Virus record (IMG/VR): IMGVR_UViG_3300044675_005052
DNA length: 64,000 nt
Origin: a virus
Taxonomy: Duplodnaviria; Caudoviricetes
Direction: 5' to 3' (one strand)
Shown: positions 53,860 through 59,434 of the stretch, in pieces
How positions within the stretch are numbered: position 1 is the first letter of the stretch
How the letters are laid out: each line of letters opens with the position of its first letter
Made by a program: the position numbers and the translations under genes
The notes under the pieces: generated by a model
Told to the model about the DNA's origin: nothing
Databases searched by the model: none
Seen by the model: only the letters and a program-made list of their open reading frames with translations

Positions 53860-54774
53860 ATGAGTAGAATTATTGTAACAGGTGGGCTCGGATTTATCGG
53901 GTCTGAATTTGTAAATTATGTGATGAACAACACAGACCATGAGGTTGTTGTTTTAGATAAAATGACTTACGCGGCTAATATTGATAATATTAAGCAACCA
54001 TTTCATTTAATAAAAAAAGATATTTGTAAAGTAACCCAAGATGATTTAGGTGATTACGATTATATTGTAAATTTCGCAGCTGAAACTCACGTGGATAATT
54101 CAATTTTGAATGGGAGACCATTTGTTGAAACTAATGTGATGGGAACTTTTAATTTATTAGAATTGGCAAGAAAGAATAATAAGTTAAAAAAGTTTTTACA
54201 AATTTCAACAGATGAAGTTTATGGTGATATGGAAGACAATGATGAGAATAATAGAATCTCTACTGAAGAGTTTCCAATGAAAGCGAGTTCATATTATTCA
54301 GCAACTAAAGTATCTTCGGATATGTTAGTAATATCGGCAAACAGAACTTACGGTTTACCATACTTAATTACCAGAACTTGTAATAATTTTGGTGAACATC
54401 AAAACAACGAAAAGTTTATTCCAAAAATTATTTCATCAATTAAGAATGGTGTTGAAGTTCCGGTTTATGGAGATGGTAGTCAGGTTAGAGAGTGGATTCA
54501 CGCTTCAGACAATGTTAAACAAATCTACAAGTTATTAGTTTCGGATGTGGTTAATGAAGTTTATAACATTGGTTCAGGTGAACGTTATCAGAATATTGAT
54601 ATTATTAATATGATTGGTAATATTCTTGGGACTGATGTAAAATATAAATTTGTTGAAGATAGATTGGGCCATGACAAACGATATTCTTTAAGTTCAAATA
54701 AGTTTAGAAATACATTTGGTGAATATGAGTGTATTAAATTACATAAATGGTTAGAAGAAATAATTGTTAAGTAA
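53860..54774 (+). CDS. rmlB: dTDP-glucose 4,6-dehydratase
   Basis: VTGGLGFIGS, DKMTYAAN, NFAAETHVDNSI, STDEVYG, YSATK, TCNNFG and RLGHDKRY motifs. Confidence 0.93.
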   Translation: MSRIIVTGGLGFIGSEFVNYVMNNTDHEVVVLDKMTYAANIDNIKQPFHLIKKDICKVTQDDLGDYDYIVNFAAETHVDNSILNGRPFVETNVMGTFNLLELARKNNKLKKFLQISTDEVYGDMEDNDENNRISTEEFPMKASSYYSATKVSSDMLVISANRTYGLPYLITRTCNNFGEHQNNEKFIPKIISSIKNGVEVPVYGDGSQVREWIHASDNVKQIYKLLVSDVVNEVYNIGSGERYQNIDIINMIGNILGTDVKYKFVEDRLGHDKRYSLSSNKFRNTFGEYECIKLHKWLEEIIVK

Positions 54775-54775
54775 T

Positions 54776-55285
54776 ATGTCAGGAGGTCTATTTACAAGAA
54801 AAAAAGTGTTTCCGGATAATAGAGGTGTGTTTGCGCCATTATCTTTGAAGGTTGGTGGGTTAGATTGGATTCAGAGTAATATTAGTTTTAATCCAAATAA
54901 ATTCACTTTAAGAGGTTTACACTTCCAAGTTGGAGAGTTTGCTCAAACAAAATTAATCAAAGTTATTAATGGTGAGATTTTAGATTTCATTGTTGATATC
55001 CGTGAAGGGTCTGAAAACTATATGATGTTGTATATGTATCATATGGAAAGTGGTGACGAATTATTAGTACCAAAAGGTTTTGCTCATGGGTTTATCACTT
55101 TGAGAGATAATACGATAGTTCAATATTTGGTTGATAATGATTACTCACCGGAAAGTGAAGGGTCAATTGTTTGGACCAACTTTGAACAAATTAAAGTTAA
55201 GATTGAAAATTTGGTGGGTAATTTTGATGAGAATGATATAACAATATCGGATAAAGATTTAATTACTAAAAATTTTAAATTATGA
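54776..55285 (+). CDS. rmlC: dTDP-4-dehydrorhamnose 3,5-epimerase
   Basis: FPDNRG, QSNIS, TLRGLHFQ, DIREGS, VPKGFAHGF, ISDKD; ATG at 54776. Confidence 0.92.
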   Translation: MSGGLFTRKKVFPDNRGVFAPLSLKVGGLDWIQSNISFNPNKFTLRGLHFQVGEFAQTKLIKVINGEILDFIVDIREGSENYMMLYMYHMESGDELLVPKGFAHGFITLRDNTIVQYLVDNDYSPESEGSIVWTNFEQIKVKIENLVGNFDENDITISDKDLITKNFKL

Positions 55286-57675: not shown

Positions 57676-58011
57676 ATGAATCCGTATCCAAAACCTTTAC
57701 AGTTATTATTAACAGAGATATATAAGGAGTTTCCTCACATGAGGAGACATCCTGAATATCGTTTTTATTATCTTCATTATGGTTATCCTAAAAATAGGGA
57801 GTATTTTATTGTTTTAACAAATTCAATACCGGAATCTGAAGATGATGAATTCGTATCTTATGTAAGTCAAATGGGTTCTGTTTTTGGTTTTATTGAAGGG
57901 GTGCTTATGAAACCTGATGATTTTGAAAAACATATTATGAAACCAATCAATGAAAGTATAAATGAATTACGTGGTAGTGAGTTCAAAACTTTCGGATATG
58001 AGGTGTGGTAA
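57676..58011 (+). CDS. Hypothetical protein
   Basis: 111-aa ORF. Confidence 0.6.
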   Translation: MNPYPKPLQLLLTEIYKEFPHMRRHPEYRFYYLHYGYPKNREYFIVLTNSIPESEDDEFVSYVSQMGSVFGFIEGVLMKPDDFEKHIMKPINESINELRGSEFKTFGYEVW

Positions 58012-58012
58012 T

Positions 58013-58040
58013 TTGACTTTTGAAAAAAAATGACTATAAT
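58013..58040 (+). promoter_or_regulatory. Sigma70-like promoter TTGACT-N16-TATAAT
   Basis: TTGACT at 58013-58018 and TATAAT at 58035-58040, before ATG 58067. Confidence 0.55.
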
Positions 58041-58066
58041 ATACAAACAAACAATAAAACAAATTT

Positions 58067-58504
58067 ATGAACGTTAAAAAAGCTCTTAAAGAAAAAAACC
58101 GATTGGTTAAAGAAATCCAAGAACTTTATGCTAGATTGTCTCAGTACAATTCAGTTGAGGTTGGAAATGTGAGACCATATTCTCCTAAAGATATGCTTGA
58201 GCAAATCAATGAGAAAAGTAATGAGTTAGTGGAACTTAAAACCAAAATCCATAAAGCTAACACTCCGGTGTATGATAAAATATTCAGATTGTCTGAATTA
58301 AAATCTACAATTGCAAGATTAAAATCTTTGGATTGTACAGAAGGTGTGAGTACTGATTACTACTCACGAAATAGAGAGAATCCACCGGTAAAAACTGCTG
58401 AGGTATCAGTGGTTGATAGAGATGAAATGGTTAAATTTATGGAGGAACAGATTGAGGACATTCAGGATATTTTGGATAACCATAATCAGAATACCGAGAT
58501 ATAA
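58067..58504 (+). CDS. DIP1984-like coiled-coil protein
   Basis: MNVKKALKEKNRL...LKTKIHKAN...LSELK..I..LKSL...QDILDNHNQNTEI fits the family pattern as recalled. Confidence 0.6.
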   Translation: MNVKKALKEKNRLVKEIQELYARLSQYNSVEVGNVRPYSPKDMLEQINEKSNELVELKTKIHKANTPVYDKIFRLSELKSTIARLKSLDCTEGVSTDYYSRNRENPPVKTAEVSVVDRDEMVKFMEEQIEDIQDILDNHNQNTEI

Positions 58505-58696
58505 TAGTTCAGAGTTCGGGAGGGATTTAATAAGACAAGATGGTAACTACCATTTCCTTACAAATTATTCAGAGAGCATTGATAAATGATTGTGATAAAG
58601 ACGGACATTAAAACCTCAAGATTCAAATTTTCAAACCTAAACGGTCAAAACTTAAAACTCTTTTAGAATTTTATTATTGAACTTCCAACCTGACTA
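58505..58696 (+). ncRNA. Candidate structured RNA (~190 nt) in the 3' region of the DIP1984-like gene
   Basis: 5' end 58505-58533 pairs with 3' end 58674-58696 (~23 bp with bulges and G-U); internal hairpin ATGGT-aact-ACCAT; seven T/C-AAA-type units at 58608-58657. Confidence 0.6.
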
Positions 58697-58697
58697 T

Positions 58698-58730
58698 AAA
58701 AAAACCCTCACTTCGGTGAGGGTTTTGTAT
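58698..58730. terminator. Bidirectional terminator with C(UUCG)G tetraloop
   Basis: AAAACCCTCAC-TTCG-GTGAGGGTTTT. Confidence 0.85.
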
Positions 58731-58732
58731 TT

Positions 58733-59434
58733 TTAGAATTTTATTTCGTAATCTTCTAAGTCAACACTTTCTTCTTCTTCGGTGTTGTAGTTAAAATCAA
58801 AGAATATTGTTTTATCACCTGAGTTAAATTCCCAACTACCTTGACCACCTTCGTTATTTTCCCATCCAGCATAATTACTATTTAACATTGAATATAATAA
58901 TTCTTCAATAGGTTTTGGTACATCCTCTTGTTCACCATCAACTGTCATATCATCTTCAATATAACCATCGTCACCACCTCCACTAAACTCAACTCTAGCG
59001 TCTCTTCCATCTAAATAAGTGAATAATTCTTCAACAGCTTTTGCATATTCTTCACCGTATTCAGATTTAATATCTGGTAAAGTGTAATCACTACCGTGTG
59101 GTTCAGTTCCATACACAGTTTGATAAGCGTAGATGATTAAACTTTTTTCTTTACAATCAATCTCAACTTCAATTCTTTGTGAACCATCACATTCTGTAAA
59201 TCTATCAATAATTGATTGGTCATCAACTAATTTTTCAATAAGTTCATCTATTCTATCATAACCTTCTACACCTCCATTTACATCACGGGAATACCATCTA
59301 TCATCTTCCCAATCTTTGCTACAAGCTGATAAATAATATGTTCTATAAACATTATCGGCTCCGTATGAGCGACAATAGTATGCGAATAGTTGTAAGGTTT
59401 TTAATTCTTCCGGTGTTAATTGGGGAATATTCAT
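58733..59434 (-). CDS. Acidic protein with DUF6878-like C-terminal domain
   Basis: VEFSGGGDDGYIE...GWENNEGGQG motifs. Confidence 0.6.
   Translation of the reverse strand: MNIPQLTPEELKTLQLFAYYCRSYGADNVYRTYYLSACSKDWEDDRWYSRDVNGGVEGYDRIDELIEKLVDDQSIIDRFTECDGSQRIEVEIDCKEKSLIIYAYQTVYGTEPHGSDYTLPDIKSEYGEEYAKAVEELFTYLDGRDARVEFSGGGDDGYIEDDMTVDGEQEDVPKPIEELLYSMLNSNYAGWENNEGGQGSWEFNSGDKTIFFDFNYNTEEEESVDLEDYEIKF

What the first reader, a model, noticed from the sequence alone, without database searches (positions are those of the whole stretch)
58013..58730. DIP1984-like coiled-coil gene plus ~190-nt structured RNA with periodic YAAA motifs: candidate ribonucleoprotein system
Seen: a self-contained unit of promoter (58013-58040), a 145-aa coiled-coil ORF, a non-coding 192 nt and a UUCG terminator. 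The non-coding 5' end TAGT(t)CAG(a)GTT(c)GGGAG(gga)TTTAATAA (58505-58533) pairs with its 3' end TTATTGAACTTCCAACCTGACTA (58674-58696) over ~23 bp including G-U pairs. Inside are a hairpin (ATGGT-aact-ACCAT) and seven T/C-AAA-type units at 6-8 nt period (58608-58657: ttaaaa, ctcaag, ttcaaa, ttcaaa, cctaaa, gtcaaa, ttaaaa). Inference: a processed ncRNA presenting a single-stranded repeat track for multimeric binding by the adjacent protein, for example an RNP filament, a type III toxin-antitoxin-like pair or an RNA decoy/sponge against host defences. I know of no named system matching this.
Basis: partly seen in the sequence, partly recalled or inferred. Interest (0 to 1): 0.78.

Follow-up and report, generated by a model that had tools for sequence, protein, structure and literature searches.

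The report
Phage protein gene with partner RNA
A freshwater jumbo phage carries a small gene of unknown function followed by a conserved, abundantly made, roughly 190-base folded RNA with a row of 7-base units; this gene-plus-RNA pair matches no catalogued RNA family and is probably an undescribed protein-RNA particle.

Summary
58067-58504 encodes a 145-aa helical protein with the DIP1984 fold (PDB 3KDQ, function unknown). 58505-58696 is a real structured RNA on the + strand.

- Closing stem: it covaries across 21 protein clades. Own-arm duplexes average -24.3 kcal/mol against -14.0 for cross-clade pairs, with 0 of 20000 permutations as good.
- Internal parts: a small hairpin, UACAA and GAUGA-like boxes, a row of UCAA units with a ~7.3-nt period, and a UUAAAACUC box.
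- Databases: no Rfam family matches.
- Linkage: the RNA follows the gene in every clade while other neighbours change. A search starting from the RNA motif found full-length RNAs only behind this gene.
- Expression: contigs in eight freshwater, river and estuary metatranscriptome runs cover only this module; 20 RNA runs hold its words. Several contigs end at 58689/58694, three with adapter read-through. In four runs the RNA part stands alone or deeper than the ORF. One run gives a closed 230-nt cycle.

Function is unknown. My best reading is a processed ncRNA that forms a particle with the dimeric protein. Rivals are a sponge for a host factor, a toxin-antitoxin-like pair, and a cis-acting 3' UTR.

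Other agents of this scan have already reported DUF6847-plus-RNA pairs on other DNA. I found no paper describing them.

The parts
58013..58040 (+). Promoter, TTGACT-16-TATAAT
   Evidence: Matches 11 of 12 positions. The same -35/-10 pair is seen upstream of the gene in about half of the clade representatives. Metatranscriptome contigs start at 58061 and 58072.
58067..58504 (+). 145-aa helical protein, phage-type branch of DUF6847/DIP1984
   Evidence: Pfam PF20935 scores 27.7 bits against a cut-off of 27. AF2 gives pLDDT 91.7. Best PDB match is 3KDQ, TM 0.77. Homodimer prediction scores 0.62 against a best control of 0.02. 3188 related 90% clusters were found.
58505..58696 (+). Structured ncRNA, about 192 nt
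   Evidence: Covariance-model hit at 58503-58698, 170.7 bits. No Rfam family matches. Transcribed in metatranscriptomes.
58505..58533 (+). P1, 5' arm of the closing stem; starts one base after the stop codon
   Evidence: In relatives, a 62-aa ORF is inserted exactly between the stop codon and this arm.
58540..58553 (+). P2 hairpin, ATGGT/ACCAT
   Evidence: A 4-8 bp hairpin of different sequence is predicted at the same place in many of the 21 clade representatives.
58559..58563 (+). UACAA box
   Evidence: Conserved columns in the weighted consensus of alignment A8.
58580..58602 (+). GAUAA/GAUGA-like box region
   Evidence: The consensus tGATganGa is conserved across clades.
58608..58660 (+). 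Single-stranded track of about seven (U)CAA(A) units, ending in the UUAAAACUC box (58652-58660)
   Evidence: Period of about 7.3 nt over 21 clades. TRF period 22. These are the most conserved columns of the RNA. The track is unpaired in the fold.
58674..58696 (+). P1, 3' arm of the closing stem
58689..58694 (+). Recurrent RNA 3' ends
   Evidence: Contigs stop at 58689 or 58694 in runs X15, X16, X17, X20 and X27. In X15, X16 and X20 the Illumina read-2 adapter follows directly.
58701..58733 (.). Bidirectional intrinsic terminator: 11-bp stem, UUCG loop, T-run
   Evidence: Contigs in X25, X28 and X29 reach 58728-58751.

Best explanation
This is a self-contained two-part module of freshwater Bacteroidota phages, also found in a few Bacteroidota chromosomes. 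One strong promoter drives a transcript that carries a small dimeric helical protein (DIP1984 fold) and, directly behind its stop codon, a structured RNA of about 190 nt.

The RNA is cut or trimmed out at the base of its long closing stem and tends to outlast the coding part. Inside the stem it holds a hairpin, two sequence boxes and an unpaired row of six to eight UCAA units spaced about 7 nt apart.

I infer that this row and the boxes are the platform on which copies of the adjacent protein (or protein dimers) sit, so the two gene products work as one ribonucleoprotein. The RNA would scaffold, sequester or guide the protein.

Shown: the RNA is real, has a covarying structure and conserved periodic motifs, is strictly linked to the gene, is co-transcribed with it, is abundant and has defined ends.

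Inferred: protein-RNA binding, the stoichiometry, and the cellular target. The changeable accessory-gene context in phages, and the neighbours in bacterial chromosomes (a type I restriction-modification system in one, an AAA ATPase and a SLOG gene in another), hint at a role in phage-host conflict.
For: - Closing stem, alignment-free test: over 21 clades (70% or less protein identity), own 5'/3' arms give -24.3 kcal/mol against -14.0 for cross-clade pairs. The own partner is best in 15 of 21, and 0 of 20000 permutations do as well.
- Closing stem, on the covariance-model alignment: 90.7% of cells are paired against 61.8% in shuffles and 38-50% with slid partners. 19 of 21 pairs have compensatory changes.
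- Strand: about a tenth of the paired cells are G-U or U-G pairs, which form only on the + strand. The adapter orientation agrees.
- Conserved boxes and heptad period.
- Linkage: all 21 clades have the RNA 0-8 nt behind the stop codon. No other neighbouring gene is shared by more than 4 clades.
- Reverse test: of 80 loci fetched by a 16-nt RNA motif alone, 18 have the gene upstream. Of the 21 full-length model hits, 18 have the gene in the locus; the other three lie in loci cut off upstream of the RNA, on contigs that carry the gene.
- Copy number: one full-length copy in each of four relatives, always behind the gene.
- Insertion: a 62-aa ORF inserted between gene and RNA in relatives leaves the RNA intact.
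- Expression: metatranscriptome contigs cover 58061-58694 while both flanks are empty. 20 RNA runs from about 20 studies hold the RNA.
- Abundance: RNA-part contigs are deeper than ORF contigs in X20 (22-36 against 3.5-7) and X25 (11.4 against 2.1), and stand alone in X27 and X28.
- Protein: homodimer prediction scores 0.62 against a best control of 0.02. That mark was reached by 20 of 30 known homodimers and 1 of 23 single chains; the runs agree in at least 98% of contacts and the partner's pLDDT is at least 88. The basic N-terminal helix (net +4) lies outside the interface.
- Wider family: canonical DUF6847 genes in three unrelated contigs are also followed by a conserved non-coding block.
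Against: - No binding data exist, and the tools offer no protein-RNA modelling.
- The protein is near neutral (median pI 6.6), has a strongly acidic C-terminal helix (net -8), and has no known RNA-binding motif.
- Most invariant residues lie in the predicted dimer interface, so they need not contact RNA.
- Linkage and co-transcription would also fit a cis-acting 3' UTR or an RNA that acts on its own.
- One canonical family member (L112) has only a terminator behind it.
- Contig depths are a weak measure of abundance, and all runs were contigs rather than raw reads.
Confidence: 0.5

Rival explanations
1. The RNA works without the neighbouring protein. It would be a stable, 3'-UTR-derived phage sRNA whose unpaired, A/C-rich, G-poor UCAA row soaks up a host factor that binds such sequence. 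Candidates are ribosomal protein S1 or 30S subunits (which select A-rich, Shine-Dalgarno-less leaders in Bacteroidota), an RNA chaperone, Rho, or a defence ribonuclease.
For: - The RNA part is more abundant than the ORF part in four runs.
- The track resembles the CAAA-rich 5' leader of the gene itself and of relatives.
- Several short single-stranded motifs in a row is the design of known sponge RNAs (from my own knowledge of CsrB and CrcZ).
Against: - The RNA was never found full-length without the gene.
- Canonical DUF6847 genes carry a partner RNA of quite different sequence. That fits co-evolution with the protein better than a fixed host target.
Confidence: 0.2
2. It is a toxin-antitoxin-like or abortive-infection pair of a new type. 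The protein would be harmful or active when free, and the excess, stable RNA would hold it in check until infection or stress changes the ratio.
For: - It is a compact, self-contained two-part module in changing contexts in phages.
- In bacterial chromosomes it sits beside a type I R-M system, and beside an AAA ATPase and a cpYpsA SLOG gene.
- The RNA is in excess over the mRNA in some runs.
Against: - The protein has no nuclease or other toxin fold and no hit to defence models.
- Gene order and RNA design differ from every type III system.
- There are no toxicity data.
Confidence: 0.13
3. It is a cis-acting 3' UTR. The long stem would be a processing or stabilising element, or in some clades the terminator itself, that sets the life-time and translation of the DUF6847 mRNA. 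Ribosomes terminating at the adjacent stop codon would melt the 5' arm.
For: - The stop codon abuts P1 in all clades, including the inserted 62-aa ORF.
- In several clades P1 is followed directly by a U-run with no separate terminator.
- Single contigs span ORF plus RNA in X15, X16, X17 and X29.
Against: - A stabiliser needs no conserved boxes and no periodic unpaired track kept over proteins only 37-50% identical.
- RNA-only contigs and ends at the base of P1 point to a separate species.
Confidence: 0.12
4. It is a DNA-level element rather than an RNA. The 7-bp units would be iterons for a DNA-binding protein and the inverted repeat a recombination or replication site.
For: Periodic short repeats flanked by an inverted repeat.
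Against: - About a tenth of the paired cells are G-U pairs, which work on one strand only.
- The strand is fixed relative to the gene.
- Transcription is strong and local, with defined RNA ends.
Confidence: 0.03

Closest known systems
DIP1984 family / Pfam DUF6847 (crystal structure 3KDQ, Corynebacterium diphtheriae; often mislabelled 'septicolysin')
   Same: Same fold: TM 0.77 to 3KDQ and TM 0.92 to an AlphaFold DB cluster of uncharacterised proteins. Same size. Marginal Pfam hit.
   Different: This is a divergent, mostly viral branch. It falls below the NCBIfam cut-off, and the Pfam model misses the Arcicella copy. The family has no known function, so membership explains nothing. Its partner RNA differs in sequence from the one behind canonical members.
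Ro60 (Rsr) with bacterial Y RNAs (YrlA, Yrn1)
   Same: A non-coding RNA whose 5' and 3' ends form a long stem, encoded next to the gene of its protein partner and also carried by some phages (from my own knowledge).
   Different: No TROVE protein in five related phage records. No Rfam Y-RNA hit. No tRNA-like module in this RNA. The partner is a small helical dimer, not a ring.
Type III toxin-antitoxin systems (ToxIN, CptIN, TenpIN)
   Same: A protein with an adjacent, co-transcribed, processed repeat RNA; compact, mobile and found in phages (from my own knowledge of ToxIN).
   Different: The protein is helical, not a ToxN-type endoribonuclease. The units are 7 nt inside one folded RNA, not 34-36-nt tandem repeats. 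The RNA lies downstream of the gene, not upstream.
Protein-sponging sRNAs (CsrB/RsmZ for CsrA; CrcZ for Hfq/Crc) and the TRAP-binding trp leader
   Same: Many short single-stranded motifs at regular spacing that bind several copies or subunits of one protein.
   Different: Different motifs (GGA, AAnAAnAA, GAG/UAG). Those partners are encoded elsewhere. None of these Rfam models hits here. The ~7.3-nt period matches none of them.
Large orphan phage-associated RNAs (ROOL, GOLLD) and the unnamed candidates in the 2023 catalogue of viral structured RNAs (PMC10690425)
   Same: Conserved structured RNAs of unknown function, carried by phages and found by comparative analysis.
   Different: This one is much smaller (about 190 nt against 500-800 nt), is tied to one protein gene and has no Rfam hit. 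I could not check whether the catalogue lists it under a number.

Membership tests
Pfam DUF6847 / NCBIfam DIP1984 family | Score above the curated cut-off of the family model | tested here: inconclusive
   PF20935 scores 27.7 bits against a cut-off of 27. NF038048 scores 36.3 bits against a cut-off of 70.
Pfam DUF6847 / NCBIfam DIP1984 family | Fold of the founding structure 3KDQ | tested here: met
   AF2 model pLDDT 91.7. Foldseek finds 3KDQ chains C and A as the only clear PDB matches, TM 0.77/0.74, probability 1.00.
Type III toxin-antitoxin | Toxin is a ToxN/CptN/TenpN-type endoribonuclease | tested here: not met
   No such Pfam, NCBIfam or PADLOC hit. The model is four helices plus a beta hairpin.
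Type III toxin-antitoxin | Antitoxin is an array of tandem repeats of about 34-36 nt upstream of the toxin gene | tested here: not met
   There is one RNA downstream of the gene. Its units are about 7 nt, and TRF sees only a 22-nt period with 2.3 copies.
Type III toxin-antitoxin | Protein is toxic and is neutralised by the RNA | not testable with these tools
   Needs expression experiments.
Ro60-Y RNA particle | TROVE-domain partner protein | tested here: not met
   PF05731 is absent from five related phage records, two of them complete; the controls ring.
Ro60-Y RNA particle | RNA matches Y-RNA models or has a tRNA-like module | tested here: not met
   No Rfam hit even at E up to 10. ARAGORN finds nothing.
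Any Rfam 15 family (including 6S, CsrB/RsmZ, CrcZ, ROOL, GOLLD, HEARO, tmRNA) | Covariance-model score at or above the gathering threshold | tested here: not met
   0 hits in the whole window. The relaxed search gives only terminator-type chance matches.
RtcB-linked RNA-repair operons (lead from earlier notes) | RtcB ligase encoded with the module | tested here: not met
   PF01139 is absent from five related phage records. T4 Rnl1-like or Rnl2-like ligases are present elsewhere in three of them.

The most novel reading that the evidence does not exclude
The DUF6847 protein and its partner RNA form a previously unrecognised, widespread ribonucleoprotein class spanning phages and bacteria. In this phage the RNA is closed into a 230-nt circle (58499-58728), perhaps by the phage's own Rnl1-type ligase, and displays a heptad track that positions several protein dimers.
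Probability: 0.15. Interest if true: 0.92.

Novelty: categorically new. Interest (0 to 1): 0.82.

Why it matters
Small conserved RNAs with a dedicated protein partner have repeatedly turned out to be machines or switches of general importance, such as tmRNA-SmpB, Ro-Y RNA, CsrA-CsrB, ToxIN and guide-RNA nucleases.

- This protein family counts thousands of sequence clusters (3188 at 90% identity for the phage branch, 1417 at 50% for the canonical branch). It has had a crystal structure since 2009 and still has no function.
- A dedicated, abundantly made RNA partner gives the first concrete handle on that function.
- The RNA's design, a closed loop presenting a ~7-nt periodic single-stranded row, is not that of any catalogued family.
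- The module is among the few parts of these jumbo phages that show up strongly in lake, river and estuary metatranscriptomes, so it is probably important during infection in nature.
- A cultured strain, Arcicella aurantiaca DSM 22214, carries a chromosomal copy, which makes experiments possible.

Tried and rejected
- Rfam at gathering and relaxed thresholds: nothing but terminator-like chance hits.
- tRNA/tmRNA scan: none.
- INPHARED phage blastn: no match.
- PDB sequence searches with the protein and with a profile: only weak coiled-coil or L29-type noise. The L29 and GatC names given by some sources are spurious.
- PADLOC: only insignificant LmuB coiled-coil matches.
- MAFFT plus RNAalifold on distant sequences predicted no pairs, because the arms were misaligned. 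I replaced this with an alignment-free duplex test and covariance-model alignments.
- My automatic outer-helix finder on 300-nt folds was too noisy. A first duplex test with poorly dereplicated sequences and terminators included was uninformative. I redid it by clade.
- I first concluded that canonical DUF6847 genes lack an RNA. After the earlier notes I re-inspected and withdrew this: L111, L234 and L235 share conserved downstream blocks, and only L112 does not.
- Coding potential inside the RNA: only non-conserved short frames (read from the sequences).
- Conserved third gene: none.
- RtcB and Ro60 in related phages: absent.
- Contig look-up for P0036: a plain DNA contig, no transcript ends.
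- Literature: no paper on DUF6847 or DIP1984 function. 'Septicolysin' appears only as an annotation label.
- The weak Foldseek rows for TasH-tigRNA (probability 0.1) are not meaningful.

Full report
**What is there.** The window is an AT-rich phage. Its nearest held record is a 143-kb IMG/VR fragment, and close relatives reach 309 kb with terminal repeats. At 58013-58040 lies a TTGACT-16-TATAAT promoter, matching 11 of 12 positions. At 58067-58504 is a 145-aa ORF. 58505-58696 has no conserved reading frame. At 58701-58726 is an 11-bp hairpin with a UUCG loop, flanked by an A-run and a T-run. It is a bidirectional terminator shared with the convergent gene at 58733-59434. The non-coding stretch folds with a long stem between its two ends (58505-58533 with 58674-58696), a small hairpin (58540-58553) and a long unpaired interior (z = -3.0).

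**The protein.** Pfam DUF6847 is hit just above threshold (27.7 against 27 bits). The NCBIfam DIP1984 model is hit below threshold (36.3 against 70). AlphaFold2 on a 37-sequence alignment gives a confident model (pLDDT 91.7) of four helices and a beta hairpin. The only clear PDB matches are chains of 3KDQ, the Corynebacterium diphtheriae protein of unknown function (TM 0.77). A homodimer prediction passes its controls: score 0.62 against a best control of 0.02, a mark reached by 20 of 30 known homodimers and 1 of 23 single chains, with the runs agreeing in at least 98% of contacts and a partner pLDDT of at least 88. Most invariant residues (N28, R36, K58, T59, H62, F73, E77) lie in that interface. 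The basic N-terminal helix (net +4) is free, and the C-terminal helix is strongly acidic (net -8). The median pI of the family is 6.6. The phage-type branch has 3188 clusters at 90% identity, mostly viral. No defence model, nuclease or known RNA-binding domain is hit.

**The RNA is real and conserved.**
- Protein-guided searches gave about 100 loci in IMG/VR and seven in Bacteroidota genomes, including Sediminibacterium and Arcicella.
- Grouped at 70% protein identity they form 21 clades. In every clade the gene is followed by 170-250 nt of the same layout. Where the model aligns full length, the RNA begins 0-8 nt after the stop codon.
- That layout is a G-rich 5' arm; usually a small hairpin of varying sequence; an (U)ACAA box; a GAUGA-like box; a row of (U)CAA units; a UUAAAACUC-like box; and a 3' arm complementary to the 5' arm.
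- The arms differ between clades but stay complementary. In an alignment-free test, each clade's own arms give -24.3 kcal/mol on average against -14.0 for arms of other clades. The own partner is the best of 21 in 15 cases, and no permutation out of 20000 reaches the observed mean.
- On a covariance-model alignment of 41 sequences, 90.7% of cells pair (shuffles 61.8%, slid partners 38-50%), and 19 of 21 pairs show changes on both sides. This alignment is fitted to the model, which is why I rely on it together.
- About a tenth of the paired cells are G-U or U-G pairs, which would be mismatches on the other strand. The RNA is therefore read from the + strand.
- CAA spacing over the 21 clades peaks at 7, 14-15, 22 and 29 nt, with troughs between. 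TRF sees the 22-nt super-period in the window. The track and the terminal box are the most conserved columns.
- No Rfam family matches.

**Linkage to the gene.**
- Flanking genes change even among close relatives, and no neighbour is shared by more than 4 of 21 clades.
- I searched IMG/VR with a 16-nt RNA motif alone and fetched 80 loci. Of these, 18 had the DUF6847-like ORF ending 122-144 nt (or about 331 nt) upstream. The model's 21 full-length hits lay in loci with that ORF or, for three, in loci cut off upstream of the RNA, on contigs already known to carry the gene. The other loci gave only the motif itself.
- Whole related phage records hold one full-length copy each, behind the gene.
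- In several relatives a 62-aa Cys-rich ORF is inserted exactly between the stop codon and the 5' arm. Its own stop codon overlaps the first bases of the arm, and the RNA is unchanged.

**Expression.**
- Twenty metatranscriptome runs from about twenty studies (lake, river, estuary) hold the RNA's words.
- Their contigs, laid on 57700-59400, cover only the module: 58061-58694 (X15, depth 261), 58072-58689 (X17), 57960-58689 (X16) and 58101-58746 (X29). The neighbouring genes have no contigs at all, which argues against contaminating DNA.
- Contigs stop at 58689 or 58694 in five runs. In three of them the Illumina read-2 adapter follows directly. This means many inserts end there, two to seven bases inside the 3' arm and before the terminator hairpin.
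- Other contigs run on to 58728-58751, so both a terminated form and a shortened form exist.
- RNA-only contigs start at 58483-58486 or 58499-58504. They are deeper than the ORF contigs in X20 (22-36 against 3.5-7) and X25 (11.4 against 2.1), and stand alone in X27 and X28. Contig depth is a weak measure, so I call this suggestive.
- In X28 the RNA is a 260-nt contig in which 58728 is followed by 58499. That is a closed 230-nt cycle printed with a 30-nt overlap. It could be a circular RNA, a head-to-tail template switch on an abundant small RNA, or a tandem copy in a relative. I could not resolve it.
- Close relatives encode T4 Rnl1-like or Rnl2-like RNA ligases but no RtcB and no Ro60.

**Wider family.** Earlier notes of this scan report DUF6847-plus-RNA pairs in other genomes, some with 7-nt periodic arrays and one possibly circular. 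They made me re-inspect canonical family members. Three unrelated contigs (L111, L234, L235) share conserved non-coding blocks in the roughly 270 nt behind the gene. None of these blocks is in Rfam. One member, L112, has only a terminator behind it. Intergenic gaps of about 300-330 nt follow the gene in two further contigs for which no DNA was available. The pairing therefore seems to be a property of the family, with partner RNAs that differ in sequence between branches. I tested this only on a handful of loci.

**Context.** In Arcicella aurantiaca the module lies in the chromosome directly upstream of a type I R-M operon. In a Bacteroidetes MAG it lies next to an AAA ATPase and near a cpYpsA SLOG gene. 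In phages it sits among accessory genes. This is the kind of neighbourhood in which conflict systems are found, but it proves nothing.

**Reading.** The best-supported explanation is a two-component protein-RNA module. A strong promoter makes one transcript. The RNA is released or trimmed at the base of P1 and tends to accumulate. The dimeric protein binds it, with the periodic track and the boxes as platform. Binding is inferred, not shown. The rivals are an RNA sponge for a host factor that acts without the protein, a toxin-antitoxin-like pair of a new type, and a cis-acting 3' UTR. A DNA-level element is very unlikely. The defining features of type III toxin-antitoxin systems, Ro-Y RNA particles and every Rfam family were tested and are not met. 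The only membership that holds is the DIP1984 fold, which carries no functional knowledge. I found no paper on the family's function. A 2023 catalogue of viral structured RNAs (PMC10690425) may list the motif anonymously, and I could not check that.

Noticed in passing
L022:1940-2128 (also L005, L009/G001, L011, L032, L035-L037): A 62-aa ORF with CxxC...CxxC (zinc-ribbon-like, no Pfam hit) is inserted exactly between the DUF6847 stop codon and the RNA's 5' arm in several close relatives but not in the window. Its stop codon overlaps the first bases of the arm.
   Followed up: partly
L023:3084-3119 = L172:7103-7138 = G406:157397-157432; also L022:3274-3309: A 36-nt copy of the RNA's 3' part (last UCAA units plus the UUAAAACUC box, resembling the 74%-identity clade) lies about 1.1 kb downstream of the full RNA in close relatives. 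The window has no second copy. It may be a recombination scar.
   Followed up: partly
window 58661-58675 and 58731-58745: An exact 15-nt direct repeat, TTTTAGAATTTTATT. One copy is inside the RNA; the other overlaps the stop codon of the convergent gene. Together they bracket the 3' arm and the terminator. This could be microhomology from a past rearrangement, or chance in AT-rich DNA.
   Followed up: no
window 58013-58040 and the upstream regions of relatives' loci such as L023, L047, L056, L061 and L093: Sigma-70-type TTGAC(T/A)-N16-19-TAtAaT promoters precede the gene in about half of the 21 clade representatives, although the hosts appear to be Bacteroidota, whose own promoters differ.
   Followed up: no
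L232:9536-16939 (Arcicella aurantiaca chromosome): The chromosomal copy of the module lies between a cluster of five large unknown proteins (one of 1143 aa, one with TPR) and a complete type I R-M operon (HsdR, HsdS, HsdM). Further on lies a small protein with a MAD1-like excisionase-type helix-turn-helix (below the model's cut-off).
   Followed up: partly
L111:1927-2200, L234:484-760, L235:2957-3200: Canonical G+C-rich DUF6847 genes are followed by a different conserved non-coding block (AGTYGGTARC, GCGAGCAC, GCCCAGTA, GTGCTG, GTGAGGGYGGG..AGGGG). L111 and L234 contain a T-arm-like hairpin, and L111 seems to have a short run of CAC-starting units about 7 nt apart. No Rfam hit.
   Followed up: partly
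G405:303951-304448 and G407:77634-78200: Close and distant jumbo-phage relatives encode a T4 Rnl1-like RNA ligase; G408 has an Rnl2-like one. None has RtcB or Ro60.
   Followed up: no
window 53860-55285: A dTDP-glucose 4,6-dehydratase-like ORF and a cupin/epimerase-like ORF (judged from the translations only) lie 3 kb upstream. In relatives L010 and L011 the dehydratase-like gene lies directly downstream of the RNA, so the module or its neighbours have moved.
   Followed up: no
window 58499-58728, run X28: A 260-nt metatranscriptome contig closes on itself as a 230-nt cycle with a 30-nt overlap, joining the terminator's U-tract to a point three bases before the stop codon.
   Followed up: partly
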